64,000 nucleotides of DNA, from the NCBI GenBank assembly GCA_964016885.1, contig OZ024740.1, forward strand, positions 93,496,001 through 93,560,000, in the 5' to 3' direction. A program made the translations under genes and the position numbers. The notes beneath the pieces were generated by a model. The model saw nothing but the letters and a program-made list of their open reading frames with translations, was not told the origin of the DNA and did no database searches. Shown piece by piece: positions 13,791-53,915 of the stretch. The DNA is from Eledone cirrhosa (Eukaryota). The stretch's first letter is position 1; every line of letters starts with the position of its first letter.

Positions 13791-13980
13791 ATAATAATTG
13801 TTTCTACTTTAGGCACAAGGCCAGCAATAATCCAGTACATTACTGGTACTTTATTTTATCGACCGCGTAAGGATGAAAGGCAAAGTTAACCTCGGCGGGA
13901 TTTGAACTCCCATAATAATAATAATTGTTTCTACTTTAGGCACAAGGCCAGCAATTATCCAGTACATTACTGGTACTTTA
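13791..13980 (-). mobile_element. Two tandem 5'-truncated SINE copies with (ATT)n tails
   Basis: ATAATTGTTTCTACTTTAGGCACAAGGCCAGCAAT occurs at ~13794 and ~13921. Confidence 0.9.
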
Positions 13981-14020
13981 ATAATAATAATACCATATTA
14001 ATAATAATAATAATAATAAT

Positions 14021-14825
14021 ACTTACCTCCCGGGGTCTTGTGAAGATCGGGTTGTTCGTCGTCCATGGTTGGTGGGGATTCTTTTTGGAACCCGTTTAAA
14101 AGTCACGATGTGGGTTTCACATTCGAGGTTCCCACGTCTTGAGGAAAGCTCTCTCGAATTTAATTGAAGGAATCGAGTGACATTCGGACCAGAAGCAAAT
14201 CTTCTGGCACGCAAAATATGCTCATTTCAAAAAATCTCCCCCTCTGTTTGAATGTCCTTGCTTCGTGCTAAGAGGGCCATCAGTTTATCGTTGGCCATTC
14301 TGACAAGCACGAAGTCTTTAACATTTTGTTGGTGTGGTTTTATTTGTTTTCGTTTTGGTGACTGTGGTAGTGATGGTTTTGGTGGTGTTGTTTCGGGTAT
14401 GTCTGTGTTTGTTGTAAGTGTGGTGTCTGCAATTTCAGGTATTTGTGTGTTTATTTGTACTAGTTTGTTTAGGTTGTTTGTGTTTCGGGGATGGTGGTGG
14501 TGGTGTAGATGTTGCTGTCGGTGCTAATGTTATTGGGGAAGATTTGCGTTAGTGGTGTCTGTATTTTTTGTTTTGTATGTATTTGTGTTTTGTTGGAGCC
14601 TTTTTTGGGTGAGGTTTCTTTTTTTTTTTTTTGCACTTTTGCGTTTTCCTTCAGCTTGCTGCTGGAAGACAACGTGCCTGGGGATGTGAGTGTCTCTGTG
14701 TCTGTTGTGCCTTTATTGTTTTGTCTATGTGTATAATTGGGAGGAGTGTAGGGGGAGTGGAATAGCTTTCCTCGTTTTCCCCTTGGATTGGTTTCAGTAT
14801 TGGTAGTGGTCCGTGTCTTTGTTGG
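14021..14825 (-). mobile_element. Tx1-like B/D-type ORF1 C-terminal fragment joined directly to (ATT)n, no ORF2
   Basis: Aligns with ~48243-49050 (end of intact ORF1); ends at GGTAAGT followed by ATT repeats. Confidence 0.85.
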
Positions 14826-14868
<43 letters not shown>

Positions 14869-20808: not shown

Positions 20809-20843
<35 letters not shown>

Positions 20844-21970
20844 GTAGAAGAAGAAGAAGAAGAGAACAATAGACCAGGGGATGTCCGAGGAATAAATAAC
20901 AACACGGAGGATGAGCAACCTTCATGTAAAATCCCTTCATAATACCTTCTTTAAGAAAACTGAATTTAGAGATCCACAGACATGGAACTGGTTAAAAAGA
21001 GGAGACCTTAAAAAGGCTACAGAAGGAATGCTAATGGCTGCGCAAGAGCAGACATTCAAAACGAAGTGGGTGAAACACCATATTTACAAGGAGGAAGCTA
21101 GCCCACTGTGTATGATCTGTGGAGAGAGAGAGGAGAGACTGGGGCTCACATTGTATCCAAGTGTAAACACCTAGCCCAGACTCACTATAAAGGCTGGAGA
21201 CATGATGTGATGGCAGGGTGATCCACTGGCACCTATGCAAAAGTAAACAATGTACCTAATTCTGAGAAGTGGTATGAGCATGAGCCAGAGTTGGTGATAG
21301 AAAACGATCAGGTGAAGGTGCTATGGGATTTTAGGATACAGACGGAAACTGGAACTCGATAGGCCTAATCTGGTGGTTTTGGACAAGGAAAAAGATCGTG
21401 CCTGATTGTAGATGTAGCCTACTCATTTGACACGAGAGTGCAAGAAAAGGAGAGGGAGAAAATTAACCGATACCAGGAATTAAAGTCGGAGGTAAAAAGG
21501 ATTTGGAACTGCCATGGAGTCAGAGTCGACCCGATTGTCATAGGCGCACTTGGTACTATCTCAAAGAGTGTCCAAGGATGGTTAAAGAAAGTTAATCCAG
21601 CCCTGCTTTTTGGAACACTTCAAAAGGAATGCTTGTTGGGAACAGCAAGAACCCTGCGATACGCCCTGAATATCTGAGGCTGCAGATAACGGCTTGATAT
21701 TCAACTAACTTTCCAGTTAAATAACTTTTTCTACTTTAGGCACAAGGCCAGCAATTACCCAGTGCATTACTGGTACTTTATTTTATCGACCCCGTAAGGA
21801 TGAAAGGCAAAGTCAACCTCGGCGGGATTTGAACTCAGATCGTAAAGGGACGTAACTATGTTGGAAAGCATGGTTTCTGACCCTCTACCGATACTGCCAA
21901 TCCACCGCCCAGTTAAATTTCCAGTTAAATAACATCAATGACTGAGACTCAAAGAACAATAATAATAATA
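20844..21970 (+). mobile_element. 5'-truncated R4/Dong-clade element with (AAT)n tail; SINE in its 3'UTR
   Basis: TEGMLMAAQEQ, CMICGE, EKEREKINRYQELK..PIVIGALGT; closely similar to 37551-38385; AAT repeats at both ends. Confidence 0.9.
21726..21910 (-). mobile_element. Full-length SINE with 16-bp target-site duplication
   Basis: TTTCCAGTTAAATAAC at 21710-21725 and 21918-21933; A-box and B-box (GAGTTCAAATCC) present. Confidence 0.92.
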
Positions 21971-22013: not shown

Positions 22014-25000
22014 AATAATAATAATTTATTTCATTTATTGGCCACAAGGGACGACACATAGTGGACAATACAAGAAACTGTGACAGTGGGGGTCTATATA
22101 TACAACTGTAAACAATATAAATAACAATAACAAAATAACAATAAGAATACAACGAGAATCATTCCCCGATGGGGGGATGACGACCCATGGCTCACTCAGG
22201 TACCCCACCAATCCTGAACGTTTCGATGTTTAGAGAGCACCCGGGAAGGGCACCCCTATCCTACTCAAATTCACCCACCTACAGGCGCATGATCAGAGTA
22301 GGCCCACTCATACGGGCCAATCTCGCCACATTCACCCACCTTTCAGCAAATGTACTGGGTGTTTGCAGCACTTCTCTCTCCACCTGCACCGTCATTTCCA
22401 AGTAAAACTTGAAAAAGGTGATGGGGGATTGGCCGAAGAGAAAAGTGTCTGTCTTCAGTCCTTTCAACCTGGTACACCATACAATCTCTTTCGCTACTCC
22501 CTGTGAAAGAGAAATTGCCTGCCCTTCGAGGCCAAAAGAAGGCGGCGGGTCGATCTATACTATAGACTCGGCTGTAAGCCGGATCCGTTCTACACGCAAC
22601 AGAAGCTGGTCGACATAACTCCACAAGTTAGTAATGACGGACACTGGACGTGTGCGTGAAGAACGGTTTCGTCGCTCTGTACTCATCTCGGGCAGGTCAG
22701 TCTGACAGCACTTCCGTGCCTGTAGTGTTTATCTCGAACCGGCAGTGCCTCCCGGTAGCACTGCAAAGCGAAGGATTTTTGGAAATTATCCATCGTCCAC
22801 GGCTCGAAAGTCCTCCGAAACAGACTGGTTAGTTCGACTTCGTCGACGCCCAGAGCGTCTCCGAGTGCGTCGTCGCAACATTCCAGATGCCAGTCACCTA
22901 GTCTCGCTCTTTTCTTGACCCAGGATTGCAGCTCAATCAAAGAGATGGGCTGCGGAAAGGGCCGTCTGACAAACGGCGGTCACATCTGTTCAGCGCGTGT
23001 CTGCACATCATTAGCCACGACATACCCAGCCTTTCACGTAGAGGGTGTTGGCAGCAGATGGACCACCTCAGCAACGGAACCTGACCCCTCCACAAATGTT
23101 TGTAGAGGAGCCGTTCCATGTTGGCGATGCGCGAACGGGGGCAAGGGACGACGGTCAGGCGGTAGTTGATGACGGACGCGATGTACGCATTCGCGACCTC
23201 TGCCCGACCTTTCAGTGAGAGCTTCCTTGCAGCCCATTTCAGGGTTAGACTGGCTACCTGGCCCGTCACCTCGTCCCAATTCTTATCCACCTGAAGGTCT
23301 GACCCACACCAAACCCCGAGCAACTTTACCGGTCCAGCGCCTAACGACGCTGTTGGACGGCATGGAGATGCCTCTCCAGGTGCCGTGTTACAAGCCCACC
23401 GACATTTCCGGGTGAAGTTTTGCACCTGTCAACCTTTCATATTCCTACAATACGTTGCCGACCACCTCGATTTATGAAGGGTCCAACACCATCATGGTGA
23501 CGTCGTCCGCATAAGCCGACACAGCGTTTCCACGTCCTGGTTCGAGCTTGCTGCCCTGCAACAACTCCAGCTTCCGCAGTAAGGGCTCGAGAGTCAATAC
23601 GTACAGAAGACAGCAGGGAGGTCATCCTTGACGGACCGATCTGGAGATCTGAAACGGTTGCGAGAGGTGGCTATTAACTTTAACCACAGCAGATGCCGCT
23701 GTGCATTGCAGCGATATTGCTTCTGAAGACGGGCCTGAACCTGCTGCCTTGAAGATAGCTTCCAGTTACCGATGGTCGACCCTATCGAATGATTTCGATT
23801 GATCTAAATTGATCAGAGCCCCACCGAAGCCAGGTTTACACCCTACCACCTCTATGATGTATCGCATCAGATAGTGGTTGTCGTGTATGAACCTGGTCAG
23901 GATTGCGCAAGTTTCTGCCTCAGCAAACAAATCCTCGACGACAAACGCCAACCTATTCAGTAACACCGTGGCCAGAATCTTAAACTCTGTGTTGAGCACA
24001 GTTATGGGTCTGAAATTGTCTAAGGTGTCCTTCTTGTTCTTGTCTTTCCTTATCAGCATCACTACGCCCCGGCTCACAGTACTGGGAATACTCCAGTTCT
24101 GCTACCAGTTGCAGTAGAGCGCTACGAGGAGATCGTAGAACAAGTCTGGCAAATTTACGTAAAGCTCGTAACGCAGACCTTCCAAACCGTGTGAGTTGCG
24201 CCTCACGCAGCCGACAAAGGCATCCTGAATCTAGGCTGAAGCGATCGGCCATTCGCAGCGCTCACTGTAGGCCGTCGAGAGTTCCGGCAAGCCATCGAGT
24301 TAGGGACTGAAGTCCGCCACCGTCTCTGAAAACTACCGAGCAAAATGTTGGCGAAAGGCCTCACACATCTGCTTGGAATCGTTTGTGTCTGTCTCGTTCC
24401 GTCAAAGACTGAATCGTAGTTTTATTACCACGCTGCGTCTCTGCCACCCGGGCCAATCGAACAACTTTGGTTCCCTTGTTTCTCAGAGCACGCGCCTAAG
24501 CACTGACAATGCAAGAGACGTGTTTCTCATTGAAGAAATGATCTAATACCTTTCTCATCGCTAGCACGTCAGTTGCAATGTCACTACAAATAGAATCGTC
24601 TAACTTATCTACCAACTCGCTCTCCTTTCTATTTTTCTCTAACTCTACTTCTTTTCTAAACCCTATCGACATTACTCTAATCACTGTTTTGAGAGTCCCC
24701 CACCATCTACTGTTGACGACTCCCCCTGTCAACTTTTTCTTAAGTAAATTCTTGACCCGGTCCATGTAAGCCTTACGTGCTGGAAATGGCATGTCCAGCC
24801 CCCAGTAACCAGGTCGTAACCTACGCATCTTATCTAGGTCGACCTTACAGACAACAAACGTGTGATCTCTATAGCCGACCGTTTTAAAACGTGGACAGCT
24901 TACACTATCTGTCTATTTTCGTTATGAATATCCTGTCTATATAAGATTAAGATGACCCTATGCGGTCGAACCAGGACCAGGTTCACACTAGGGAAATCTA

Positions 25001-27933
25001 GTCGGTACCTGTCAGACAGTTGGAACTGACTGATCAGGTACTACAGGCTTTTGCACACCCCTGCTCCTATCGGATACTCCCACACAGTCCCAGCGTGCGT
25101 CTAAGATGCAGTTCCAGTCTCCCGCTAACAGTAAAGTGCGGAACGTACCCAGAAATGCTTCCAGGCATCTAAAAAAGTCCGGCCTTCCTGCCCCAGTAGG
25201 GGCGTAGACGGCCACCCGTCTAAAGGCACCACCTTTGTTATTGTTCATGTCCAGGACTACCAACTTACCGTCCGGGTCCCTGATGATCGACCTTACCTCG
25301 AGATCCAGGCCTTTCCTAAACACCACTGCCACCCCACCCACATTGCCGGGCGACTAACAGTTGCGAAGATTTGATAGTCTTCGAAAATGGGGACTAGATA
25401 GGCTCGTGTCGGAAATCCTGGTCTCGCTGACGGCAATTACATTCATTTCTACAGGCTTGAGGTCGTTAAGCAGGTGACCCTGCTTCCAGGACGATCCCAG
25501 GCCTCGAACATTTAGACTTCCTACTCTTAATACGGCCATGTTGGCAGACTAAAAGAGAGAGGAAAGGTTTACTTACCCTCCGGGCTCTTGTGAAGGTCGG
25601 GTGGTTTGACCTCCATAGTTGGTGGAGTTTCTTTTGGGAACCCCTTTAAAAGTATTGAAGGGGATTTCACGTTGGGGGTTCCCAGGTCTCGAGGAAAGCT
25701 GTCTCGTATCTCTTTGCATTCGAGCGACATTTGCCCCTGAACAAATCTTCCGGCACGTTAAATGTGCCCGATTTAATAATACCCACCTCTTTTTGAATCT
25801 CTTTTATTTCGTGCTACGAGGGCCATGATGTCCTTGTTGGCCCTTCTGACGATTATGAAGTTGTGTATGTTTTGTTGGTGTGATTTTATTTGCTTGCGTG
25901 GCTTGGTGGTGATGGTTTTGATAGTGTTGTTTCGGTTGTGTCTGTGTTTGTTGTGAGTGCAGTGTCTGTGGTTTCAGATGTACGTGTGTATATTTGTTCT
26001 TCCGTCTGTTTAGGTTGTTTGTGTTTGGGGCATTGTGTTGATGGTGATGGTGATGGTGGTGTTGATGTTGGTGTTGTCGGGCAGATGTTTGAGTGAGCGG
26101 TATGTACATTTTTTTTCGTGGATGTTTTTGTATTTTGTGGATTTTTTTTACGTTTCCTTGTTTGTATTTTGGGGGATTTGGTTTTACCTCCTCGTCACTA
26201 CTGGTAGATGAATGGTCTGCGTCTGCAAGTGTGTCCGTGTCTGTGTGTGTGTTTATGTTTTTATTGGTGTGTGTATTTTCATCGGGAGGGGGGAGTTTCC
26301 TCGACCTCCCTCCCCTGAGTGTTCAATGCTGGTGGTGGTGTTACTATTAATGTTCTTACTGGTGGTGGTTTCGCCGGTGCTGGTGTTGGTTGTGGTCTTC
26401 GCACCGGCGTCGGCAGCAGTGGAGCACATCGACCCCTTCCATCTTTCAGCACTTGAGGGCAGAAGGCCCGCAAATGGACTTTTTCCCCACAAACAAAACA
26501 ATGCGGCCTTTTCCCCGCGGCATAATGTGATTTACCGTCCTGCTCTGTAGACGGATGTGGTCCGGGATTGTTTTGATATTCTCGGGCCTGATCTGGAGAA
26601 GTATCTTTAGGTCAACCCCGGACCAGTCCTCTCCGGCAGTTCTTGTTACATCTATCGGGACGTTATATGTCCCTTCCGCAATCACACATCCTAGAAGCCA
26701 CCACGTGTCAAGTCCTTGTGGGATTCTGGGAATGCGGAGACGGGCTGTCATTTTTCCTATGTGCGAAGGGTACATTATTACCTTGCTGGTTTTGCAAAGT
26801 GTCATAGCATGTTTGATAGTGAGGGCTTCTGACTTAAACGGGACCGAAATTCTGCCGTACTGTCTGCCCCTCGCTATGTATGAGGTGTCGACCCTGATGC
26901 ACCTCCACGCGACTTCGACATCTGATTGTGGAATTAAAGCTGCCCTCTTGGTTTGTGCTGAGATGCATCTGTAATATACCGCTGTCCTCTATTGCTTCAA
27001 TAGCTTCTACCGAGACAGTTAAGTTGGTACAAGTTTGCTCTTGCTTGATGCGTTTCCTGACCTGGGCCAAATTTTCATCTTTGTTCGAGAGGCCCATGAT
27101 GAAGCGCGGCCTCTTTTTGGCTGCTGCCGCAGCGAAAATGTTCTTGTTGTCCTTGTTGCTGTTGGTGTCGTCGTTGTTATTGTGGGTGTTGTTGGACTTA
27201 TCACTGTTGCAGTTGGTTATATCTTTGATGCCGACTTTGTTGTTGTTATTGGCACAGTTGTTATTGTTGCTATTGGAGCTGTCACTGTTTATATTCTGGT
27301 TAGTGGTGTTAATTTCATTGTTGTTTTCTTTGATATTGTTGTTGCTGCTATTGTTGTTATTGTTGTTGTTGTTGTTGTTGTGGTTGTCACTGTTGTTGAT
27401 ATTGTTTCCTTTGTTGTCGTTCTTTCTGTTTTTGGTGTTGTTATCATTATTGCAGTTGTTGATTTTTCTGTCGTTGTGGCTGGTGCTTTTGTCGTTCTTG
27501 TTCACAACTGTTGTTTTGTTTACTGTTTTTGGTAATGTCGCTGATGCGGTTGTTGTCATTTTTCTTCATATTATTATTATTGCTGTTGTTGGCGACATTG
27601 CCTGATGTGTTGTTACATTTAAAATTGATGCGGGAGGGGCAGAGTTATTAGCCTCAAAGATCGACACGCTGTCGGCAGACAGCAAGCTAAAAAATGGGCG
27701 TGGCTCCGCCATATTTTATTTTTTAAATTCTTTTATAAAAACTTTGTTTTAAACACACACAGCTTAAATATTTGGGCCAACAGGCCCGAATATTATGGGG
27801 AGTCCTTTTTGGGGGACAAAGACTAAAGCTTATTTCCCGTTTGAAGCAAAAATATTAATGACAAACGTATTTCAAAGAGTAGAAAAATCTTACTTAGGAG
27901 CTCACCATAGTACATCCATTCGCTTCAACGAAC
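22014..27933 (-). mobile_element. Tx1/L1-clade LINE copy D (B-related), full length, decayed
   Basis: ORF1 starts MAEPRP at 27712, Asn-rich N-terminus, ends ~25569; ORF2 relics 25539->22279 (MAVLRVGSLNVRGL..GPTLIMRL); AAT repeats at both ends. Confidence 0.95.
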
Positions 27934-34181: not shown

Positions 34182-34779
34182 AATAATAATAATAATAATA
34201 ATGTTTTCTTTATTAACCAGAAGGGTTTACATAAAGTAGACATTAAGGACAGTACAGGAAAATACAGGACGGTACAAATGGGCATTTCTGCGTGTAAAAA
34301 AACAGATGTAATAAAATAACAAAGAAATAGGGGGGGGGGGGAGACTTCCGAGGGACATTTGTGAAGAAAGCCCATTAAAAGACCACAGTGACCCTGACCA
34401 CCAGGGCAAGTACCCTCTCCCAGTTTTCCACCTTTAATTTACAGACACATACTCAGAGTAGGCCCATTCACTCGGGCCATACTTGCTTCTCTCACCCATC
34501 TTTCAACAAAATGCTGGGAAGAGAGCTCTTCCATCTCTACCCTGATTTTCCTTTTCAAATTAAATTTGAAAAAGTTAATCAGGGCATCACCGAAGCGGTA
34601 AGTGCTCGTCTTCAGCCCTTTCAAAGGTGTCCACCATACTATCTCTTTCGCAATGGCCACCAGACAGATAAAAACTGCCTGCCCTTCCCGGCTAAAAGAA
34701 GAGGGCGGGGCAATCCTAACGATGGACTCAAGATGATAGCCAGATCCGTCCTACACGCGACAGCAGGTGTTCGACATAA
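34182..34779 (-). mobile_element. Tx1-like A-family copy A4, 5'-truncated (~0.6 kb)
   Basis: Tail 34182-34202, A-type 3'UTR, last part of ORF2. Confidence 0.92.
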
Positions 34780-38456: not shown

Positions 38457-38490
<34 letters not shown>

Positions 38491-41400: not shown

Positions 41401-44400
41401 TCTAATTCAAGCACACAGATCACAAATTTGTGGTCCGTGTAGCTTACTATCTTATATTGTGGACAGCCTTTTCTAGACCTATCTATTTCGCTACAAAATA
41501 CTCTATCTAGATATGATCTGGATGACCCTACGTGATTTGTCCAAGTCCACATTGGCACATTCGGGATATACAATCGGTACCCGTCAGACAGTTCAAAACG
41601 CCTGAGCTGGTTGGTGAGGTTCATGCATCCTCCCCCCTATCCGCTAATCCCACACAGTCCCAGCGTGCATCTAAGATCCCGTTCCAGTCGCCCACTAAAG
41701 ATCGGGACGTTCCAAGAAAGGTCTCCAGATGCTGGAAGAAATCAGGCCGCCCTGCTCCTCTCGGGGCATAGACGGCCACTAGCCTGAAAGCTTGTCCCTC
41801 TCCGCTGGTTACGTCTAGCACCACCAACTTACCTTCTGGGTCCAGGAAGATGGCCCGTATGGCGAGATCCAAACCTCTCCGAAAAAGCAGAAACTTCACT
41901 CACGCCCCTGATCCCGGACGGCTGGGAGATGAGTACACAACGTAGCCGCCGAAGATCGGTGCGAAGGCCCGTGCTTCGGTACCGATTGTATTTCCCGAAT
42001 GTTTCGGAGATTCTGGTCTCGCTGATGGCCACTACATCTTTGTTTAGTGACCTGAGGTATTTGAGCAGGTGGCCCTGCTTCCATTATGACCCCAAGCCAC
42101 GCGCATTTATGCTGCCTATTCTGAGTGAGGTCATGTTGAAATGGAGTGGAAATGTTGGGAAAAGACCACTTACCTTACTTCACGTAGAGGATGGATGGTT
42201 TGTCCTTTCTTTTCACTGCTTGTGGCCTCCTCCGGAAGGATGTCCTTATTAATCCTCCTGGAGAGTGTTTGTCCGAAGTCTCCGATGTCTTTGGGGAACT
42301 TTTGTTTTAGTGTCGTGTAGGTTTTCAGTGTGAGGCGAGTGATTTGTATGTGTGGATGTGGTGTGGACATTTGGGTTGTTGTGTAGTCTATTTATGTCAT
42401 GCTGGTGTTGTGTTGCATGTAGTGTAATCATTGGTTGATGTTCAAATTTAATTGTTTCTACTTTAGGCACAAGGCCAGCAATTAACCAGTGTATTACTGG
42501 TACTTTATTTTATCGATCCCGTAAGGATGAAAGGCAAAGTTAACCTCGGTGGGATTTGAACTCAGAATAGCAAGGGCCGTAACTCTATGTGTCATAACAT
42601 GGCGTCCGACTCTCTACTAATACTGCCAATTCAAATTTAATGCTGTCTAGTGTGTATTGTTTTGGTGGTTTTGTTTTGTTTGCGTTTGTTGTGGGTTTGT
42701 TTATGTTACGCTTTTTGGTGACTTTTGTGGTGTTTGTATCGGTAGTGTTGGGGTTAATGATGGTGATGGTGTTGGTGTTTGTGGGGATGAGGTTGGTGAT
42801 GCTGGTGTGGATGGTGGCATATCTGTCCTAACTTTTTTGTTTGATAATTTATTTATTTCGCTTTGTATTTTGTTTTTGGAGGGGGAAGGAAGAGAATTTT
42901 TTTCTTTTTTGGTTTCATTTTTTCTTTTTTCCTGATACCGTTTCCCACTCTTCGTCGTCACAATCTATCTCCAGTTGTGATAGACCGGGGAGTGGAAAAT
43001 CCTCCACAGGCGTTGGTTTTGGTTGTGGCGTGGTGGATGGTGTACGCGCTGGTGCCAGTTCTGTTGCTGGGGTTTGTTGCTGTTACAGTTGCTTCTGTTG
43101 TTGCTGCTATAGCTGTTGTTTCCATTTCTGCTGCTGGTGGTGTTGATGGTTGAGGTCATGGGGTGGGTATGAGAGGTGGCCTCAACCTTTTAACCTGAGG
43201 GCAGAAAGCCCTTAGGTAGGTTGCTTAACCACAAACGACACACCTAGGCCTTCTGCCCTCGACGATTACGCTGAGGTGGCTGCCGTCACTGAGGTCTATA
43301 ACCTCGGGGATCTCCTCAATGCTTTTATGGTCTGCTTGGATCAGGTGCTCCATCCCAGATCCGGAGCAGTTCTCCTGCTTTTCTTTCGCTATTTTGATTA
43401 TCTTGGTGTTGGTCTCGATGCCGGCGAGGAAGGCACCATTAGCCAGGGATTTCGAGGGCCGGTGGCACGTGGGTCACCCTGATCTTCACCAGTCTCTGGC
43501 CACAATAGCTTAGGACGAGTGTGAAGTCGTCACTTCTTAATGGGGCCATGGAATGTTCTCTGGCCTCCTGTGGTTTTTCAAAGAACACGTCCACGGTTCC
43601 ATATTTCTGCCCACGTCTGATGTGGGTTTTTTCTGCCCACACATGCGATTTGGGACTCGGATGCCCGTTCCACTCGGCGCGATGTTATGTTAATTGTCCG
43701 ATAAGACTCGGTGCATAGGCGACGATGCTCCATTTTATTAGGTGTGTGTGTCTGTGGGGGGGGGGGGGGGGTGACCTTGTACCCATCTTTCTTTACCATT
43801 CTTTTGGCTTCTTCTAACTCCGCCTGAGTTATCTACCTGGATCGCTTCGCACGTTTTTGCTACTCTGGCAAAACTCAGGGTAGTTTTCTTAATTTCATTG
43901 TTGCTGTTGTTGTTATCGTTATGTTTGTTATTGTTAATTTTAGTTTCAGTTGTGGTGGTGGTGGCGTCAGTGGTGTTCGGTGTTGAAGAGTTCATTTTGC
44001 TTGAATTCATTTCGATATCACGAGTTAATTTATTTTTTTCTTTTGTTTCTGTTGTCGCTGTGGTGGTGGTGGCGGGGGTTGTCGCTTTGGTGGCGGTGGT
44101 GGGGTGGGGGTGGCGGCTTTAACACCTGCAGTCATTGGTAATGGCGGGAAATTTTAAATATTGAGTCAAATTTAAAATATTGCTACTGCTTATATATTTA
44201 GTGTTGGCAAACGTAGTAATATTTACAATGGTGGTGTCGGTGTGAGGTGTTAGTTTGTGAGGAAGGTGTGAATCTGAGTCCGCCATGATTTTTCAAAGAA
44301 CATTTTTTTTTTTGTTTGATGATTAAAAAAAGTTTAAATTTTGGGCCCAATGCCCCAATATTTTTGATTGTCCTTTTCAGAAATCAATGTGTGTGCACTT

Positions 44401-44506
44401 ATATACAGTTAACAATAACAATTTTCCATAAATGGCAATTTTAAACAACTGAAAATAACAAACATTTGCGGAGCTCACGATGATACGATTTACTACGTAG
44501 GTCGCC
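38457..44506 (-). mobile_element. Tx1/L1-clade LINE copy C: A-type ORF2/3'UTR with a divergent ORF1/5'UTR, decayed
   Basis: Tail 38457-38489; ORF2 relics ~42134->38740 closely match A1; ORF1 from ATG 44286 matches A1 only at protein level (RRVERASESQI, RGQKYGTVDVFF). Confidence 0.93.
42451..42630 (-). mobile_element. SINE inserted in ORF1 of copy C, with target-site duplication
   Basis: TTCAAATTTAA at 42441-42451 and 42630-42640. Confidence 0.92.
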
Positions 44507-44541
<35 letters not shown>

Positions 44542-44791
44542 TTTCATTTATTGGCCACAAGGGCCGACATATAGGGGACAACACAATAGACAGGGACAGT
44601 GGGGGTTTACATAGAGATCGAGTAAGTATAAATAACAAAAAACAAAATAACAATAAAAATACAACAATGAAAGTTCCCCAATAAGAGGGATCACCACCCA
44701 GGGTTGACTCAAGCACCCCACCAGTCCTGAGCCACCCGACGCTCCTAGGGCACCCGGGAAGGGCACCCCTCTCCTTCTCGAATTCACCAGC

Positions 44792-47700
44792 CTACAGGCG
44801 CATGATCAGAGTAGGCCCACTCACACGGGCCATTCTCGCCACATTCACCCACCTTTCAGTAAATGTACTGGGGGGCAGCACTTCTCTCTCCACCCTCACC
44901 TTCCTTTCCAAGTGAAACTTGAAGAAGTTGATGAGGGATTGGCCGAAGAGAAAAGTGTCTGTCTTCAGTCCTTTCAACCTGGTCCACCATGCAACCTCTT
45001 TCGCTACTGCCACCAGGCAGAGGAAAATTGCCTGCCCTTCCTGACCAAAAGAAGGCGGCGGGTCAATCTTCACTATGGACTCGGACGATAGCCGGATCCG
45101 TTCTACACGCGACAATAGCTGTTCGACATAACCCCACAAGTCAGCAATGCACGGACACTGGACGAGTGCGTGCAGAACGGTTTCGTCGCTCTGCGCGCAT
45201 CTCGGGCAGGTTCGTCTGACAGCACTTCCGTGCCTGTAGAGTTTATCCCGAACCGGCAGCGCCCCCCGGTAGCACTGCCAAGCGAGGGATTTCTGGAAGT
45301 TATCCATCGTCCCCGGCTCGAAAGTCCTCCGGAACATACTGGTCAGTTCTACTTCGTTGACGCCCAGAGCCTCTCCTAGTACGTCATCGCACTTGCCCTC
45401 CACTAATCCTCTATAGAAATCTTGAGTGGAAGTTCCACTGACCGCATTGCCCACCTTGCAGAGTGCAGTGAGCGCCTGGCAACATTCCAGATGCCAGTCG
45501 CCCAGTCTCGGTCTCTTCTTGACCCAGGACTGCAGCTCAGTCAAAGAGATGAGCTGCGGAAAGGCCCGTCTAACAAACGGCGACCACACCTGTTCACCGT
45601 TTAGGCAAAATATCTGGAGATGTCGCAGCCTCAGCGCATGTCTGCGCATCATTAGCCACGGCATGCCCAGCCCTCCACGAAGAGGGTGCTGGCAGCAGAT
45701 GGACCGCCTCACCAACGGGACCCGTCCCCTCCACAAAAATTTGAAAAGGAGCCGTTCCAAATTGGCGAGGCGTGGACGGGGGCAAGGCACGACGGTCAGG
45801 CGGTAGTAGATGACGGACGCGATGTACGCGTTCGCCACCTCCGCCCGCCCTTTCAGTGATAGCTTTCTCTCAGCCCATTTCTGGGTGAGGTTGGCTATCC
45901 TGCTCGTCACCTCGTCCCAATTCTTATCCACCTGGAGGTCTGGTCCGAACCAAACCCCGAGCAACTTTACCGGTCCGTCTGTCCAGCGCCCAACGACGCT
46001 GTTGGACGGCATGGACTTGCCTCTCCAGGTGCCGAGCTGCAAGCCCACCGACTTTTCCGGGTTAAGTTTTGCTCCCGTCAACCTTTCATATTCCTCCAAA
46101 TGGGTGCGGATCACCTCGACTTCCGAGGTGTCCGACACCATCACGGTGATGTCGTCCGCATAAGCGGACGCAGCCTTTCTACGTCCCGGTTCGAGCGGGA
46201 TGCCCTGCAACAACTCCAGCTTCCGCAGTAGAGGCTCAAGAGTCAATACGTACAGAAGTGAGGAGAGAGGGCACCCTTGACGGACCGATCGAGAGATCTG
46301 AAACGGTTCCGAGAGGTGGCCATTAACTTTGACCACCGAGCGGATGCCGCTGTACATTGCAGCGATCCAGCTTCTGAAGACGGGGCCGAAGCCAGCCGCC
46401 TCGAGGACAGCCTCCAAGTACCGATGGTCGACCCTATCGAATGCTTTCGATTGATCTAAATTGATCAGAGCCCCACCGAAGCCAGGTTTGCACCCAACCC
46501 TCTCTATGATGTATCGCATGAGGTGGAGGTTGTCGTGTATGGACCTGGTCGGGATTGCGCAAGTTTGCGCCTCCCCAACCAAATCTTTGACGACAAGCGC
46601 CAACCTTTTCGCTAACACCTTGGCCAAAATCTTAAACTCTGTGTTGAGCAGGGTTATGGGCCTGAAATTATCTAGTGTGTCCCTCTTGTTCTCGTCTTTC
46701 CTTATCAGCGTCACTACGCCACGGCTCACAGAACTGGGAATGCTCCCGTTCTGCTGCCAGTTGCAGTAGAGCGCTTCGAGGAGATCGGAGAACAAGTCTG
46801 GCATATTTACGTAAAGCTCGTAGGGCAGACCATCCAAACCGGGTGACTTGCGACTCGAGCAGCCGACAAGGGCGTCCTGAATTTCGGCTGATGTTATCGG
46901 CTCTTCGCAGCGCTCAGCGTCGGCCGTCGAGAGGCGTGGCAAGCCGTCGAGGTAGGGACTGAAGTCCGCCGCCGTGTCCGACTCACCCATCCTCCCGAAC
47001 AATCGAGCAAAGTGCTGGCGAAAGGCCTCACACATCTGCTTGGAATCGCTCAGTTCGTGTCCATCTCGATCCGTCAAAGACCGAATTGTGGTTTTATTTC
47101 CACGCTGCGTCTCTGCAAAGCGAGCCCATCGGGCAGCTTTGGTTCCCTCGTTCCTCAGAGCACGCGCCTTAGCTCTGACAATGCAACCTTCGTGTTTCGC
47201 ATTGAAGAAATGGTCTAGTGCCATTCTCGCCGCTAGCACGTCTGTTGCAATGCCACTACAAATAACCTCGTCTAACTTAGCTATCAGCCCCTCCTCCTTT
47301 CTATTTTTCTCTATTGCTACTTCTTTGCTAAATCCTATCGAGGTTGCTCTAATCTCTCTTTTGAGTGCCCCCCACCACCTGTTGTTGACAACCCCCCCTG
47401 TCAACTTTTGCTTAACTAAGTTGTTGACCCGGTCCCTGTAAGCTTTACGTGCCGGAAACGACATGTTTAGCTTCCAGTAGCTAGGTCCTAACCTACGTGT
47501 CTTATCTAGGTCGACCATACAGATCACAAGCTTGTGATCTGAATAGGCAACCGTTTTAAAATGTGGACATCCTACACTATTTCTATCTCTTTTCCTAATG
47601 AAAATCCTATCTATGTACGATCTAGATGACCCTATGCGATTGGTCCAGGTCCATACTGGCGCATTAGGGAAATCTAGTCGGTACCTGTCAGACAGTTGAA

Positions 47701-48211
47701 ACTGGCTGATCAGGTACTTGAGGCTTTTGCACCCCCCGCTCCTATCAGATACTCCCACACAATCCCAGCGTGCTTCTAAGATGCCATTCCAATCCCCTAT
47801 TAACAGTAAAGGGCGAGACGTAAGCAGAAAGTTTTCCAGGCGCCTAAAGAAGTCCGGCCGACCGGCCCCAGTAGGGGCGTAGACGGCCACCAGTCTAAAG
47901 GCACCACCTTCGCTATTGCTCACGTCCAGGACCACCAACTTTCCGTCAGGATCCCGGAAGATTGACCTTACCTCGAGATCCAGACATTTCCTAAACAGCA
48001 CAGCCACTCCACCTCCCATTCCCGGCCGACTGACAGATGCAAAGATCTGATAATCGTCGAAAATCGGCGCCAGTGCGCGTGTGTCGGAAATTCTGGTCTC
48101 GCTGATCGCAATTACATCCATTCCTAGTGACCTGAGGTCGTTGAGCAAGTGACCTTGCTTCCAGGGCGACCCCAGGCCACGAACATTTAAACTTCCTACT
48201 CTTATGGCCAT
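44792..48211 (-). CDS. ORF2 protein, 1139 aa: APE endonuclease + reverse transcriptase + C-terminal CCHC finger
   Basis: APE motifs SLNVRGL, ISETR, VYAPT, GDWN, SYIDRIF, SDHK; RT motifs KSPGLDGLPYE, FRPITLLNTEFKILAKVLAKRL, LDQSKAFDRVDH, VRQGCPLS, YADD; CPRC..ETVLHALVQC. Confidence 0.97.
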   Translation of the reverse strand: MAIRVGSLNVRGLGSPWKQGHLLNDLRSLGMDVIAISETRISDTRALAPIFDDYQIFASVSRPGMGGGVAVLFRKCLDLEVRSIFRDPDGKLVVLDVSNSEGGAFRLVAVYAPTGAGRPDFFRRLENFLLTSRPLLLIGDWNGILEARWDCVGVSDRSGGCKSLKYLISQFQLSDRYRLDFPNAPVWTWTNRIGSSRSYIDRIFIRKRDRNSVGCPHFKTVAYSDHKLVICMVDLDKTRRLGPSYWKLNMSFPARKAYRDRVNNLVKQKLTGGVVNNRWWGALKREIRATSIGFSKEVAIEKNRKEEGLIAKLDEVICSGIATDVLAARMALDHFFNAKHEGCIVRAKARALRNEGTKAARWARFAETQRGNKTTIRSLTDRDGHELSDSKQMCEAFRQHFARLFGRMGESDTAADFSPYLDGLPRLSTADAERCEEPITSAEIQDALVGCSSRKSPGLDGLPYELYVNMPDLFSDLLEALYCNWQQNGSIPSSVSRGVVTLIRKDENKRDTLDNFRPITLLNTEFKILAKVLAKRLALVVKDLVGEAQTCAIPTRSIHDNLHLMRYIIERVGCKPGFGGALINLDQSKAFDRVDHRYLEAVLEAAGFGPVFRSWIAAMYSGIRSVVKVNGHLSEPFQISRSVRQGCPLSSLLYVLTLEPLLRKLELLQGIPLEPGRRKAASAYADDITVMVSDTSEVEVIRTHLEEYERLTGAKLNPEKSVGLQLGTWRGKSMPSNSVVGRWTDGPVKLLGVWFGPDLQVDKNWDEVTSRIANLTQKWAERKLSLKGRAEVANAYIASVIYYRLTVVPCPRPRLANLERLLFKFLWRGRVPLVRRSICCQHPLRGGLGMPWLMMRRHALRLRHLQIFCLNGEQVWSPFVRRAFPQLISLTELQSWVKKRPRLGDWHLECCQALTALCKVGNAVSGTSTQDFYRGLVEGKCDDVLGEALGVNEVELTSMFRRTFEPGTMDNFQKSLAWQCYRGALPVRDKLYRHGSAVRRTCPRCAQSDETVLHALVQCPCIADLWGYVEQLLSRVERIRLSSESIVKIDPPPSFGQEGQAIFLCLVAVAKEVAWWTRLKGLKTDTFLFGQSLINFFKFHLERKVRVEREVLPPSTFTERWVNVARMARVSGPTLIMRL

Positions 48212-48240
48212 GCTGGCAGGATGAATGGGAGAGGAAAGGT

Positions 48241-50151
48241 TTACTTACCTTCCGGGGTCTTGTGAAGGTCGGGTGGTTCGACCTCCATGGTTTGTGGGGT
48301 TTCTTTTGGGAACCCCTTTAATAGTCTTGACGTGGGTTTTACGTTCGGGGTTCCCACATCCCGAGGAAAGCTCTTTCGAATTTCTTTGTATGAAGCGAGC
48401 GACATTCGCATCAGAAGCAAATTATCTGGTACGCGAAATGTGCTCGCTTCAAATGTTTCCCCGTCTTTTTCGATGTTTGTGCTTCGTGCTACATGGGCCA
48501 TCAATTCCTTGTTGGCCCTTCTGGCAAGCACGAAGTTTTTATAGTTTTGTTGCTCGGGTTTTATTTGTTCGTGTGATTGTGGTGGTGATAGCTTTGTTAG
48601 TGTTGTTTCTATTGTGTCTGCGTTTGTTGTGGGTGGGGTGTCTGTAGTTTCTGATGTTTGTGTGTCTATTTGTTCTTGTGTCTGTTTAGCTTGTTTGCGT
48701 TTGGGGGATTGTGGTGGTTGTGTTGGTGATGCTGTGGGGAAAATGTTTGTGTGGGTGGTGTGTGTATTTTTTTTTGTGGGGGTGTTTGTGCTTTGTGGAT
48801 TTCTTTTTTTTTTGTGTTTTGTTTTTTGTATTTTGGGGGACTTTGGTTTTCCCTCATCTTCACTGCTGGAGGATGAGGGGTCTGTGGCTGTGAGCGTGTT
48901 TGTGTCTGAGTGAGTGTTTATGTTCTTGTTCGTGTGTGTATTTTGGGGGGGAGGGGGAATGGGAGAGCTTTCCTCGTTTCCCCCCTGGGTGTGCAATTTT
49001 GGTGGTTCCATTGTTGACGGTGTTGCTGGTGGTCCTTGTCCCGGCGTCGCCAGCAGTGGAATCTTTCGACCCCTTGCGCTTTTCGGCAGTTGAGGGCAGA
49101 AGGCTCGCAAGTGTGTCGTTTCCCCACAAAGGAAACAATGCGGCCTTTTGCCCTCAGTCATTATATGCAACACCCTCCCGTTTTGGAGGCGGATGTGGTC
49201 CGGGATTGTTTTTACGTTTTCGGGTCTGATTTGGAGCAGTATCTCCAGATCAACCCCGGACCAGTCGTCCCTGGCAGTTCTCGTTGCCTCTACCGGGACT
49301 GTATCCGTTCCTTCCACGATTACGCAACCCAGGAGCCACCACATATCAAGTCCTGGTGGAATCCTGGGAATGCGCACACGTGCTATTCGTTTTCCCATGT
49401 GGGAGGGGTACATTATGACCTTGCTGGTTTTGCAAGGGGTCATTGAATGCTTCACAGCGAGGGCTTCAGACTTGAACAGCACCGAAACGGTGCCGTATTG
49501 CCTGCCCCTCTCTATGAAGTCTGTGTCCTCTCTGATGTATTTCAGTGCGGCTTCTATGTCAGCTTGGGCGATTATCGCTGCCCTCTTTGTCTCTACTGAG
49601 ATGCATCTGAAATGCACCGTTCTTTTTTCCACTGCCTCAATGGCTTCTGCCGGGACAGTTAAGTTTGCCCAGGTCTGCTCTTGATTTATGATTTTCCAGG
49701 CCTGGGCCAACTTTTCCTCTCTGTTGGTTAAGTCGATGCTGTAGCATGGTCTCCTTTTAGCCGCTGCCACAGCAGCGAAAGTGTTCTTGTTGGTGTTGTC
49801 ACTGTTGTTGTTCTTGTTGGTGTTGCTGCTGCTATTGCTGTTGTTGTTCTCCCCTGTGTCGTGGTTACCTTCTGTGCTGTTGGCCTTGTTGGTGCTGCTG
49901 CTGTCGCTACTATTACTCTCTGTGCTGTTCGTTTTGTTGGTGCTCTCGCTATTACCACCTTCTGCGCTCTTCGGCTTGTTGGTGTTGGTGTTGTCGCTGT
50001 TACCACCTTCCGCGCCGCTCGGCCCGTTGGTGCTGGCACTGTCGCTGCTCACATTCGTGCTGGTGGCGCTCCTCGCCTCACCTCTCCTCTCAACGCTCAA
50101 GTCGCCGTTGCACGACAGCAGACCCGCCTCTAGGGGGCGTGGCTCCGCCAT
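48241..50151 (-). CDS. ORF1 protein, 636 aa: low-complexity N-terminus, RRM-like core, CCHC zinc knuckle, low-complexity C-terminus
   Basis: CFLCGETTHLRAFC (CX2CX4HX4C); RGRQYGTVSVLF RNP-like segment; lies upstream of ORF2. Confidence 0.92.
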   Translation of the reverse strand: MAEPRPLEAGLLSCNGDLSVERRGEARSATSTNVSSDSASTNGPSGAEGGNSDNTNTNKPKSAEGGNSESTNKTNSTESNSSDSSSTNKANSTEGNHDTGENNNSNSSSNTNKNNNSDNTNKNTFAAVAAAKRRPCYSIDLTNREEKLAQAWKIINQEQTWANLTVPAEAIEAVEKRTVHFRCISVETKRAAIIAQADIEAALKYIREDTDFIERGRQYGTVSVLFKSEALAVKHSMTPCKTSKVIMYPSHMGKRIARVRIPRIPPGLDMWWLLGCVIVEGTDTVPVEATRTARDDWSGVDLEILLQIRPENVKTIPDHIRLQNGRVLHIMTEGKRPHCFLCGETTHLRAFCPQLPKSARGRKIPLLATPGQGPPATPSTMEPPKLHTQGGNEESSPIPPPPQNTHTNKNINTHSDTNTLTATDPSSSSSEDEGKPKSPKIQKTKHKKKRNPQSTNTPTKKNTHTTHTNIFPTASPTQPPQSPKRKQAKQTQEQIDTQTSETTDTPPTTNADTIETTLTKLSPPQSHEQIKPEQQNYKNFVLARRANKELMAHVARSTNIEKDGETFEASTFRVPDNLLLMRMSLASYKEIRKSFPRDVGTPNVKPTSRLLKGFPKETPQTMEVEPPDLHKTPEGK

Positions 50152-50197
50152 GTTTTTTTGAGAACAAAATTATTATTTTTTTTCAAAATAAAGTTCA

Positions 50198-50225
50198 AAT
50201 ATTTGGGCCAAAAGGCCCAAATATT
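50198..50225 (-). promoter_or_regulatory. Conserved 5'UTR hairpin upstream of ORF1
   Basis: AATATTTGGGCC-AAAA-GGCCCAAATATT is a perfect 12-bp inverted repeat; related stems occur in copies D, C and A1. Confidence 0.6.
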
Positions 50226-50382
50226 ATGAGTTATTCCTTCACAGGATACAAATTAATGTCTTATAATGCTTCAGCGGTACAAAAAATAAACAATTCTCTA
50301 CAATTAATCCTCAAAAATTGCTTACTCACGGAGCTTCAAAAAACGTACATCCACTTTCGTCAATAATAATAATAATAATAAT

Positions 50383-50463
50383 AATTGTTTCTACTTTAGG
50401 CACCAGGCCAGCAATTACCCAGTGCATTACTGGTACTTTATTTTATTGACCCCGTAAGGATGA
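50383..50463 (-). mobile_element. 5'-truncated SINE between two (AAT)n tracts
   Basis: SINE 3' end; AAT tracts at 50362-50385 and 50464-50496. Confidence 0.9.
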
Positions 50464-50497
<34 letters not shown>

Positions 50498-50893
50498 CTT
50501 TCTTTATTAACCACAAGCGTTTACATAAAGTAGACATTAAGGGCAGTACAGGACAATACAGGACGGTACAAATGGGCATTTCTGCGTGTAAAAAAAACAG
50601 AGGATGTAATAAAATAACAAAGAAAAATTCCCCAATAGGGGGGAGACTTCCGTGGGACATTTGTGGAGAAAACCCATTAAAAGACCACAGTGACCCTGAC
50701 CACCAGGGCAAGTGCCCTCTCCCAGTTTTCCACCTTTAATTTACAGACACATATTCAGAGTATTCACTCGGGCCATACTTGCCTCTCTCACCCATCTTTC
50801 AACAAAATGCTGGGAAGAGAGCACTTCCCTCTCTACCCTGATTTTCAATTTTCAAATGAAATTTGAAATTTGAAAAAGTTAATCAGGGCATCG
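50464..50893 (-). mobile_element. Tx1-like A-family copy A5, 5'-truncated (~0.4 kb)
   Basis: Tail plus A-type 3'UTR and ORF2 end. Confidence 0.9.
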
Positions 50894-50904: not shown

Positions 50905-51003
50905 TACTTGTTTCTACTTTTGGCACAAGGCCAGCAATTATCCCAGCGCATAACTGGTAATTTATGTTATCGACCCCGTAAGGATGAAAGGGAAAGTTAA
51001 CCC
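50905..51003 (-). mobile_element. SINE 3' fragment
   Basis: TTGTTTCTACTTTTGGCACAAGGCCAGCAATT..GATGAAAGG. Confidence 0.85.
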
Positions 51004-51014
51004 ATGTGGTATAT

Positions 51015-53828
51015 TGATCACAACGGTTGACACAAAGTATAATATTAAGGCCAACACAGGACAATATAGGACGGTACAAATGGGCATTTCTGCAAGTAAA
51101 AAAAAACAGAGGATGTGACTAAAAAAAAAGAAACGATGAAAGATTCCTCAATAGGGGAGAGACTTCCGTTGGTCGCTCGTGGAGAAAGCCCACAAAAAAG
51201 CCACGGTTACCCTGACCGCTAGGGAAAGTGACCACTTCCAGTTTTCCTCCTACGTTGCTAAAAGCACACGGTCAGAGTAGGCCCACCCACACAGGGCATT
51301 TGTCCCTCTCTCTTCCTCATTTCAACAAACTTGCTGGAAGGCAGCACTTCACTCTCCATCCTGATTTTCCTTTTCAGATGAACCTGAAAAAGTTAATGAG
51401 GGCGTCATCAACCCTTTCAAACATGTCCAACATAGGATCTCTTTTACCATGGCATTTAGGCAGATACAACCTCCCTGCCCTTCCCAGCTAAAGGAAGGCG
51501 GCAGGGCAATTCTCACAATGGACTCAGTTGATAGCCGGATACGTTCTACACAGCAGGTGTTCGACATAAACAAACAAGTCAGCAATGCTCGGACACTGGA
51601 CGAGTGTGTGCATGACGATTTCATCGCACTACGCGCATCTCCGACAGTCAAGGCTGACGGTACTTCCCTTCTTGTAGAGTTTATTCTGAACTGGCAATGT
51701 TCCTGAGTAGCACTGCCAGGCCAGGGATTTCTGGAGGTGTACATGGGCCCCGACCCGAAAGTTCTCCAGAAGAATTTGACTAGCTGATGTTCGTCGACGC
51801 CCAGAGTCTTCCCCAGAACGTCGTCACACATTCGCTCCACTAACCCTCTATAGAACGCTAAGGTGGGGTTACCACTGATTGTATTTCCCGACTGGTTGAG
51901 GGTTGTAAGCGCTTGAAGACATTCCAGTCTCCAAGGGCTTCCACTCGGTCTTCGCAAGACACAGGCCTGCAGCTCTGTCAAGGAAACACGCGTCTAGCAA
52001 AGAGCGAGCACACCTGCCAAACGTCAATGATGAGGTGGAGATGCCGTAGCTTGAGCGCATGTCTGCGCATCATCAGCCACGTCATGTATAGCCCTCCGCG
52101 TAGCGTGTATTGACAGCAGATGCACCGTCTGACTATCGGAACAAATTCCTTACACAAAGGGAGAAAGAGCAAACGCTCATGCGCACTCACCGCGGTCAGG
52201 CGGTAGCAGATGTCGGACGCGATGTACTTGCTCGCCACCTCCACTCGACTTTCAGGGATAGATTCCTCTCGGCCCAATTCTCGGTGAGTGAGGCCACCCG
52301 GCTCGTCACATCGTCCCAGTGTCTGTCCGTTTAGAGGTCCGGACCGAACAAGACACCTAGCAATTTAACCGGTCCACCGGCCAGCGTCCGACTGCGCTGT
52401 TAGATAGCATGGACCTGTCTCTTCAGGTGCCGAGTTGCAGACCCAGCGACTTTTCCTGGTTGAACATTGCTCATGTCACCGACTCGTATTCTCATAGTGT
52501 GGTGCTGATCGCCTCGATGTGTTTGGCATTAACCACTACTACGGTGACTTTGTCTACATATTTTGACACTCGCATCCAGTTCACCCAGGTTCCCCACAAA
52601 GTCTCCAGTATGTTCAGTAATGGCTCAAGAGTCAATACGAACTACAGGGACGAGAGAGTACATCCTTGGCTGACCGACCGCATGATGTTGAACGGTTACG
52701 AAAGGTGACCGTTCACTCTCATCACAGAGCATATGTCTCTGTGCATAGCAGCAATCCAGCACCTGAAGACAGCCGCCCTCAGGACCGCCGACAGATAAGG
52801 ATGGTCAACGCAACTGAAAGCTTTCGACTAATCTAAATTGTTAAAAACCCACACGTGTCAGGTTGCCTAGCTACTCTCTCTAAAATGAGGTGGAGGTTGT
52901 CGTGGATGGATCTGTCTGGAATGGCGCATGTCTGTGCCTCACCCACCAGACTACCACCGACAAGCGCCACCCTTTCTGCTAGCACCTCAGCCAAAATCTT
53001 GAACTCTGTGTTTAGCAGAGTTATGGGCCTGAAATGATTCCCCCTGTTCGGATCCTTTCTCAACAGCGCCACGCTTCTAGGCTCACATAGCTGGGAATTA
53101 TCCCGTTCTGCTTCCAGTTGCAGTAGATGTCCGCTAGGAGGTCTCTGAACATGTCTAGCATATGTACGTAAAGTTCCTAGGGTAGACCATCCAAACCAGG
53201 TGATTTACACATTGTACAGCCAGACCGTCGAGGTAGGCACTAAAGTCCATCCCGTGATGCGGCCCGCCCTATCTCTGAACAGCTGAGCAAAATGCCACTG
53301 AAAAGCTTCACACATCTGCGTGTGATCGAGTACCATGCGCCCGTCGTGGTCTTCCAAAGACCGAATCGTGACTCTGTTGCCACGACGCGCCTCTGCCTCC
53401 CGGGCCCATTGACGGTTTCGTCCTATCGTATCTGAGAGCACGCACCCTAGCTCTGATAACGCAACCTTCGTACTCTGCGGTAAAAAAAATTGTTCGCGAG
53501 CCAATTTCGCAGCAAGCACGTCGGTTGCGATGCCTTTACTAAGCGTTTCGTCTAATTTGCTAATTAGATCTCCCTCTGCTCTAATTTTCCCTCTTACTAA
53601 GGCCTTACTAAACCTAATGGACTCTATTCTAATCGCACTTTTCAGGGTTAACCACTATTTGCTATTGACGATGGCCCCCGTTAACACCCACTTAACCAGT
53701 TCGCTAATCCGGTCTCTGTAAGCTTTGAGCGCTGTTAACGGCGCGTTTAGCTTCCAGTAGCCGGGTCCCTCTCTATGAAGCCTGTGTAATTCAACCACAC
53801 ATATCACACATTTCTGGTCCATCTAGTC
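51015..53828 (-). mobile_element. Older, more diverged 5'-truncated Tx1-like A-related copy E
   Basis: ORF2 relics (HFRPITLLNTEFKILAEVLAERVAL, WLMMRRHALKLRHL, WRLECLQALT); truncated in the late APE region; tail not preserved. Confidence 0.9.
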
Positions 53829-53845
53829 ACCTCCCTATATACATA

Positions 53846-53915
53846 TAATTGTTTCTACTTTAGGCACAAGGCCAGCAATTACCTAGTGCATTACTGGTAC
53901 TTTATTTTATCGACT
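53846..53915 (-). mobile_element. SINE 3' fragment
   Basis: AATTGTTTCTACTTTAGGCACAAGGCCAGC. Confidence 0.88.

What the first reader, a model, noticed from the sequence alone, without database searches (positions are those of the whole stretch)
13791..53915. Self-assembling ~40-kb head-to-tail array of (TTA)n-microsatellite-targeting Tx1/L1-clade retrotransposons
Seen: ten Tx1-like units, all on the minus strand. Nine end in (ATT)n instead of poly(A), and all five complete 5' ends (20808, 27933, 34181, 44506, 50361) abut (AAT)n directly. Units differ in family, length and decay, so this is not a simple tandem duplication. Known: Tx1-clade APE elements include target-specific families (Kibi/Koshi on TCC/TTC repeats, Keno on U2 snRNA, Dewa in tRNA arrays). 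I do not recall a (TTA)n-specific one from cephalopods but cannot search. Inference: each insertion leaves target repeat on both sides, so the locus regenerates landing sites and grows as a polar array.
Basis: partly seen in the sequence, partly recalled or inferred. Interest (0 to 1): 0.9.

Follow-up and report, generated by a model that had tools for sequence, protein, structure and literature searches.

The report
ATT-repeat-targeting LINEs stacking into arrays
Several families of L1-type jumping genes in this animal genome sit almost always in ATT repeats and copy about 18 bases of the repeat on both sides, which likely lets later copies keep landing at the same spot and build long same-direction stacks; the stacking route is known, but this target appears to be new for this kind of element.

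Summary
Largely confirmed. The window holds ten minus-strand L1/Tx1-like units of different families and ages, and all five complete 5' ends abut (ATT)n. The targeting is genome-wide: 317 of 323 exact 5' ends of the youngest family follow (ATT)3, as do 30 of 30 sampled 5' ends in each of two other families. Interrupted repeats show an 18-bp target duplication (3 copies), so the ATT 'tail' is mostly duplicated target and both junctions stay usable. Under half of 5'-incomplete copies (15-17 of 36) abut ATT. Same-strand clusters are common in this genome, and some runs (up to 10 copies) were also amplified locally. Tandem build-up through duplicated targets is published (R1, SINEU-3), as is TAA targeting by Dong; no paper found reports ATT for a Tx1-type element, but Repbase/Dfam could not be searched and Tx1 membership is untested. 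This scan reported the same phenomenon before at other loci of this genome.

The parts
44540..50361 (-). U3, full-length young element (family A1), 5822 bp; ORF1 48241-50169 frame (642 aa stop to stop, one CCHC knuckle), ORF2 44792-48244 frame (1150 aa, APE-RT-zf-RVT), both open
   Evidence: 99.7% to dispersed copies
38490..44506 (-). U4, full-length decayed element (family B2), SINE inserted in ORF1 region
28939..34181 (-). U6, family B1, complete 5' end, internal deletions
22026..27933 (-). U8, full-length decayed A-related element; its 5' 25-mer is unique in the genome
14867..20808 (-). U9, full-length decayed element (family B1)
51010..53830 (-). U1, 5'-incomplete element of a further family; last bases and ATT run replaced by a SINE piece
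50497..50892 (-). U2, B-type 3' fragment
34203..34779 (-). U5, B-type 3' fragment, abuts the 5' part of D1
27982..28927 (-). U7, B-type 3' fragment, 5' junction at (ATT)3, 98% to dispersed B2 copies
14021..14827 (-). U10, ORF1 3' fragment ending at the ORF1 stop; no ORF2 or 3' UTR
34780..38383 (+).
20864..21957 (+). D2, 5'-truncated copy of the same LINE, (AAT)11(AGA)n at its 5' side and (AAT)5 at its 3' end
21720..21910 (-). SINE inside D2 with a 16-bp target duplication
35286..35468 (-). SINE inside D1
42449..42633 (-). SINE inside U4 with a 12-bp target duplication that begins ATT
50380..50465 (-). SINE 3' fragment between U2 and U3 (further fragments at 53845-53914, 50906-51002, 38384-38458, 21967-22010, 13920-13980, 13793-13909)
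50362..50385 (.). (AAT)8 at U3 5' junction; the other junction runs are 50464-50496, 44507-44539, 38457-38489, 34182-34202, 28928-28938, 27934-27981, 22014-22025, 21958-21972, 20809-20841, 14828-14866, 14000-14020
8150..12073 (-). U11, older, heavily decayed related element outside the reported range, (ATT)4 at the apparent 5' end and ATT run at the 3' end

Best explanation
Several related APE-type LINE families sit in (ATT)n microsatellites in one fixed orientation with a 15-18-bp duplication of the repeat on both sides, and the array likely grew by repeated independent insertion into these regenerated sites. [quoted passage not shown] Each event leaves at least (ATT)5-6 on both sides, so any junction, not only the array's ends, takes the next element. 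A Dong/R4-like LINE uses the same repeat from the other strand and an ATT-ended SINE adds further sites. Once two copies of one family are adjacent, unequal exchange (or multimeric reverse transcription) can expand them.
For: 5' flanks: 317 of 323 exact A1 5' ends follow (ATT)3; 30 of 30 B1 and 30 of 30 B2 5' ends follow at least (ATT)3 (families have 2340 and 2233 exact 5' motifs); 19 of 19 full-length A1/A2 copies and 13 of 13 B copies. The flank is a pre-existing site, not only a leader: upstream lie compound microsatellites, other elements' 3' ends (11 of 30, 8 of 30) or 5' junctions of opposite-strand D1-like copies (9 of 60). Duplication: of 68 full-length copies with both ends, 3 have an interrupted repeat repeated on both sides, each exactly 18 nt (L081, L091, L117); truncated L084, L074, L078 show 15-17-nt duplications running into non-ATT sequence; L113 and the last copy of the 10-mer have GTT straight after the element end, so no ATT tail is obligatory. 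A1-A1 spacers are (ATT)5-7 in 12 of 13 pure junctions. Independence: window units are closer to dispersed copies than to each other (U9 94% to L193 vs 90% to U6; U7 98%; U3 99.7%). Clustering: among the first 100 B-type 3' ends, 19 neighbours lie within 7.5 kb (1.6 expected), 18 on the same strand, against 28 of 55 for distant pairs. Local amplification: four copies on C4 differ by 2-6 substitutions and share private variants; a 10-copy run has two copies without substitution and mosaic neighbours. ORF2 is open with APE, RT and zf-RVT domains.
Against: Only 15 (17 with two marginal cases) of 36 5'-incomplete copies with a readable junction abut ATT or show an ATT-started duplication; 19 do not, among them young copies L063, L094, L194, L195 (read by eye; some may be later deletions or insertions). 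The 317/323 figure could be inflated if the RNA carries AUU at its 5' end. In several full-length copies with a short 3' ATT run the non-ATT bases are not duplicated (L098, L118, L125, L052, L054, L057, L061, L062, L080). No empty allele or orthologous empty site was seen. No nicking data; endonuclease versus RNA-tail choice of target is unresolved.
Confidence: 0.85

Rival explanations
1. The target is chosen by RNA-DNA pairing: a loosely specific endonuclease nicks AT-rich DNA and only sites that pair with AUU repeats at the RNA's ends are completed.
For: Truncated copies need only ATTATT or less at the start of the duplication (L074, L078, L084) while full-length copies end in-phase in ATT in 98%; 332 A1 3' motifs against 323 5' motifs suggests most finished insertions are full-length; precedent for R2 5' junctions (PMC3774820 passages). 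Earlier scan notes report relatives in TCTA and GATA repeats (not checked by me).
Against: L113 and one array copy begin their 3' flank with GTT, and L091 and L117 carry no ATT beyond the 18-nt duplication; Tx1-clade target choice is ascribed mainly to the endonuclease (PMC4494074 passage). The two models are not exclusive.
Confidence: 0.3
2. The elements insert at random and carry their own (ATT)n at both ends; clusters come from passive survival in dispensable regions.
For: 19 of 36 5'-incomplete copies have non-ATT 5' junctions.
Against: Interrupted repeats duplicated on both sides; 5' runs of 3-27 units grading into compound microsatellites and other elements' ends; 18 of 19 close neighbours on one strand.
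Confidence: 0.04
3. The window's array is an old tandem duplication or an assembly artefact.
For: Two B1 units each follow a D-type element; homogeneous runs exist elsewhere; no read spans the array in the runs laid.
Against: Units are 66-92% alike and closer to dispersed copies; short-read contigs of runs X2/X3 carry window-specific stretches of U8 and U10 with 0-3 differences at single-copy depth 7-15 (these runs may be the assembly's own sample).
Confidence: 0.04

Closest known systems
Kibi (TC)n, Koshi (TTC)n and crocodilian Tx1 families on (TTCC)n/(TTTC)n (PMC4494074: passages and section 15 read; figure 3 and supplements not seen)
   Same: APE-type LINEs specific for a microsatellite
   Different: Target is (ATT)n, host is an invertebrate; phylogenetic link not tested
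Dong (R4 clade; Bombyx Dong, DongAg, DongBg) targeting TAA microsatellites (PMC3812793 passage; PMC3774820 passages)
   Same: Same repeat; a Dong-like element is in this array and faces Tx1-like 3' ends tail to tail in 16 of 40 B-type loci
   Different: R4 is an RLE clade (PMC4640811 passage); opposite strand polarity to the APE elements here
R1 tandem arrays in Drosophila and double insertion in general (PMC5932611 passages); tandem SINEU-3 insertions sandwiching a TSD (PMC4494074 passage)
   Same: Head-to-tail copies separated by the duplicated target, later expanded by unequal exchange
   Different: Here the target is a dispersed trinucleotide repeat, many families of two clades and a SINE share it, and arrays are scattered over the genome
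L1-Tx1 and Dong-R4 families of Octopus vulgaris (PMC13282606 passages: 13 and 5 recently active families)
   Same: Same two LINE groups recently active in an octopus
   Different: That paper's main text has no occurrence of 'target'; whether its families are these was not tested

Membership tests
L1 group of non-LTR retrotransposons | ORF2 with N-terminal APE, RT and C-terminal CCHC region; separate ORF1 | tested here: met
   Pfam PF03372, PF00078, PF13966 on U3 ORF2; two open frames
L1 group of non-LTR retrotransposons | RT closer to L1 than to R2 | tested here: met
   human L1 ORF2 121 bits vs R2 80 bits; EN hits only L1-EN and its chimeras among nucleases
Tx1 clade | RT phylogeny groups with Tx1L, Keno, Kibi, Koshi | not testable with these tools
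   no named Tx1 reference among 99 homologues or their clusters or in the atlas; no tree built
Tx1 clade | ORF1 with RNA-binding domain(s) and CCHC knuckle (recalled feature) | tested here: inconclusive
   one CX2CX4HX4C motif in sequence; zf-CCHC_4 E 0.23 below cut-off; atlas look-alikes zf-CCHC and ZCCHC3-type RBD at 0.90-0.92
Tx1 clade | Target-sequence preference (more than 20% of flanks, criterion of PMC4494074) | tested here: met
   317 of 323; 30 of 30; 30 of 30
Kibi/Koshi lineage | (TC)n or (TTC)n target | tested here: not met
   target is (ATT)n; (TTC)n at only 2 of 40 B-type 5' junctions
R4 clade / Dong (for D1, D2) | RT followed by CCHC and restriction-like endonuclease, no APE | tested here: inconclusive
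   RT best hits R2 proteins, E 2e-11; C-terminal piece aligns to the R2 RLE region only at E 0.13; the name Dong/R4 is recalled, no R4 reference was compared
R4 clade / Dong (for D1, D2) | Insertion in TAA repeats | tested here: met
   D2 has AAT runs on both sides; 9 of 60 sampled flanks are D-type 5' junctions at differing positions abutting (AAT)n

The most novel reading that the evidence does not exclude
An undescribed lineage of APE retrotransposons reads (ATT)n with both its endonuclease and AUU repeats at both RNA ends, which makes about nine in ten new insertions full-length; together with an opposite-strand RLE element and a SINE it has built a large share of the genome's long ATT runs into a self-feeding network of landing pads that seeds 6-kb-unit satellites (up to 10 copies seen).
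Probability: 0.3. Interest if true: 0.65.

Novelty: new variant of a known kind. Interest (0 to 1): 0.45.

Why it matters
It adds a microsatellite target to APE-type site-specific retrotransposons and shows convergence of APE and RLE elements on opposite strands of one repeat. A young family with hundreds of near-identical, mostly full-length copies and an open ORF2 makes it directly testable whether endonuclease or RNA-target pairing sets specificity and 5' completeness, and the genome shows both stages of the TE-to-satellite path (independent stacking, then local amplification).

Tried and rejected
Clade placement by homologue names: no informative names. Rfam scan of 8000-56000 at E up to 0.05: no match, so no known ribozyme family at the 5' ends. 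Sequencing runs: no RNA holder listed; laying contigs and RAD reads did not span junctions or reveal an empty allele. A genome-wide count of junction classes with a gapped pattern was not obtained; position lists and fetched loci were used, so neighbour fractions are samples from C1-C3. U8's family could not be sampled (motif unique). SINE tail versus LINE tail: global alignment of the last 45 nt scored 19-26 against a shuffle mean of 7 and maximum of 29 in 1000, so the partner link is suggestive only. Tandem duplication of D+B1 blocks in the window rejected. Kojima and Fujiwara 2004 is not held and supplements of PMC4494074 could not be read; both could list an ATT/TAA-targeting Tx1 family. 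Nine paper searches gave no report of an (ATT)n-specific Tx1/L1 family; I opened six papers only and most subscription journals, Repbase and Dfam are not covered.

Full report
Anatomy. Self-comparison and tblastn with the open frames of U3 give ten minus-strand units between 14021 and 53830. U3 (44540-50361) is intact: ORF2 has APE, RT and zf-RVT domains and its RT is closer to human L1 than to R2. Eight units have a real 3' end followed by (ATT)n; U10 is an ORF1 fragment broken at the ORF1 stop and U1 ends in a SINE piece. The host is probably an octopod; this rests on my recollection of the SINE and on no call.

Targeting across the genome. The 23-mer at the U3 5' end occurs 323 times and 317 of these follow ATTATTATT. 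A U3-specific 3' motif occurs 332 times, so most young copies appear to be full-length. The U9/U6 and U4 5' motifs occur 2340 and 2233 times; the first 30 listed of each all follow at least (ATT)3. A sister family (A2) found among 40 loci picked by a shared 3' motif does the same: 19 of 19 full-length copies (40 of the first 100 of 947, chosen for lacking a nearby A1 5' end). In 40 B-type loci (hand-picked from the first 100 of 8,015, all selected for (ATT)6 at the 3' end and favouring those without a known 5' end) 13 of 13 full-length copies abut ATT. 5'-incomplete copies are less clear. Reading by eye, 15 have ATT at the junction or an ATT-started duplication, 2 are marginal and 19 do not (2 of them TTC runs, 1 an AAT run). 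I set aside 7 where the upstream sequence is rearranged element or an unreferenced family, 6 where alignment was lost in the 5' UTR, and L092, L097, L112 as unresolved. Two pairs (L218/L223, L222/L225) look like one event each.

Target duplication. Among 68 full-length copies with both ends, three carry an interrupted repeat on both sides, each 18 nt (L081, L091, L117). Truncated L084, L074 and L078 show 15-17 nt duplications that start with ATT and run into other sequence. L113 and the last copy of the 10-mer have GTT right after the element end. So the (ATT)n 'tail' is mainly duplicated target. A1-A1 spacers are (ATT)5-7 in 12 of 13 pure junctions, and all nine in the 10-mer are (ATT)5. Against a fixed stagger: nine full-length copies with a short 3' run do not repeat the non-ATT bases upstream. 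This could reflect later insertions and mutation or an AUU leader that anneals to the target, as proposed for R2 (PMC3774820, passages).

Array growth. Window units are 66-92% alike and closer to dispersed copies, from 99.7% (U3) and 98% (U7) to 94% (U9), 90% (U4, U6) and 84% (U8), so they arrived separately over time, and the youngest is in the middle. Elsewhere 11 of 36 sampled A1 5' ends outside A1 runs (by eye), 11 of 30 B1 and 8 of 30 B2 5' ends follow another element's 3' end. B-type ends alone make up 8,015 of the 44,308 (ATT)6 runs that start after a non-T base, so the elements supply a substantial part of their own target pool and only a modest extra preference, if any, is needed. Of the first 100 B-type ends, 19 neighbours lie within 7.5 kb (1.6 expected), 18 co-oriented. 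Seventeen of the first 100 A1 5' ends are about 5.84 kb from a co-oriented A1. Of four such runs examined, one (C1 181.4 Mb) has copies 20-52 substitutions apart, as expected from independent insertion; one (C4) has copies 2-6 apart with private variants; the 10-mer ranges 0-42 with mosaic neighbours, which points to unequal exchange as well. D-type elements face B-type 3' ends tail to tail in 16 of 40 loci and their 5' junctions abut the same runs in 9 of 60.

Assembly. Not settled by reads: contigs are short in repeats. Window-specific stretches of U8 and U10 are present at single-copy depth in X2/X3, and unit divergence makes collapse or expansion unlikely for this window; the two substitution-free copies in the 10-mer remain open to doubt.

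Comparison with what is known. Kibi (TC)n, Koshi (TTC)n and crocodilian Tx1 on (TTCC)n/(TTTC)n are the known microsatellite-specific Tx1 families, and tandem SINEU-3 insertions sandwich a TSD (PMC4494074, passages and section 15). TAA repeats are the target of Dong (PMC3812793, passages). Double insertion at a duplicated target followed by unequal exchange is documented for R1 and other elements (PMC5932611, passages). PMC13282606 (passages) lists active L1-Tx1 and Dong-R4 families in Octopus vulgaris without target analysis. PMC4640811 (passages) places R4 among RLE clades. Searches found no (ATT)n-specific Tx1/L1 family; Repbase, Dfam, the 2004 screen and the supplements of PMC4494074 were out of reach and may bear on novelty. 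Eight earlier notes of this scan describe the same or related patterns at other loci of this genome; they are not independent evidence.

Verdict. Real, well supported, a new target variant of a known kind of element with a known stacking mechanism; interest 0.45.

Noticed in passing
G000:C1:423362000-423420200 (L031-L038): Ten full-length A1 copies head to tail (58 kb), all spacers (ATT)5; the four downstream copies are more diverged than the six upstream ones.
   Followed up: partly
genome-wide: The young A1 family has nearly as many 5' motifs (323) as 3' motifs (332), unusual for a LINE, where 5' truncation is the rule (recalled).
   Followed up: partly
L222 and L225, 5' junction: A B-type element broken at the same position and joined to a short degenerate (TAACCC)-like repeat, possibly a telomere-like or Penelope-type end.
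   Followed up: no
L215: The first 8 bases of a B1 5' end are joined directly to the last 333 bases of a B element, next to a full B1 copy: deletion or template jump.
   Followed up: no
L113-type and C1 10-mer downstream flank (L031-L032): Just after the last copy lies a short inverted copy of the element's own 3' end.
   Followed up: no
window 50315-50361, 44460-44506, 27885-27933, 20765-20808: All complete 5' ends start with G and share a short motif about 30-45 bases in that ends in a splice-donor-like GT(A/G)AG; perhaps an internal promoter element.
   Followed up: no
window 21720 and 38384: SINE sequence sits at nearly the same position in the 3' end of both D1 and D2, at a GTTA(T/G)TTAAC site; independent targeting or shared history not resolved.
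   Followed up: partly
Runs labelled as three different organisms (A, B, C) hold 65-80% of the sampled words of the young element, so close relatives carry near-identical copies.
   Followed up: no
window 10361-10444: (TTC)28 inside the decayed U11 region; (TTC)n or (AGA)n also appears at some junctions (D2, L206, L210, L213).
   Followed up: no
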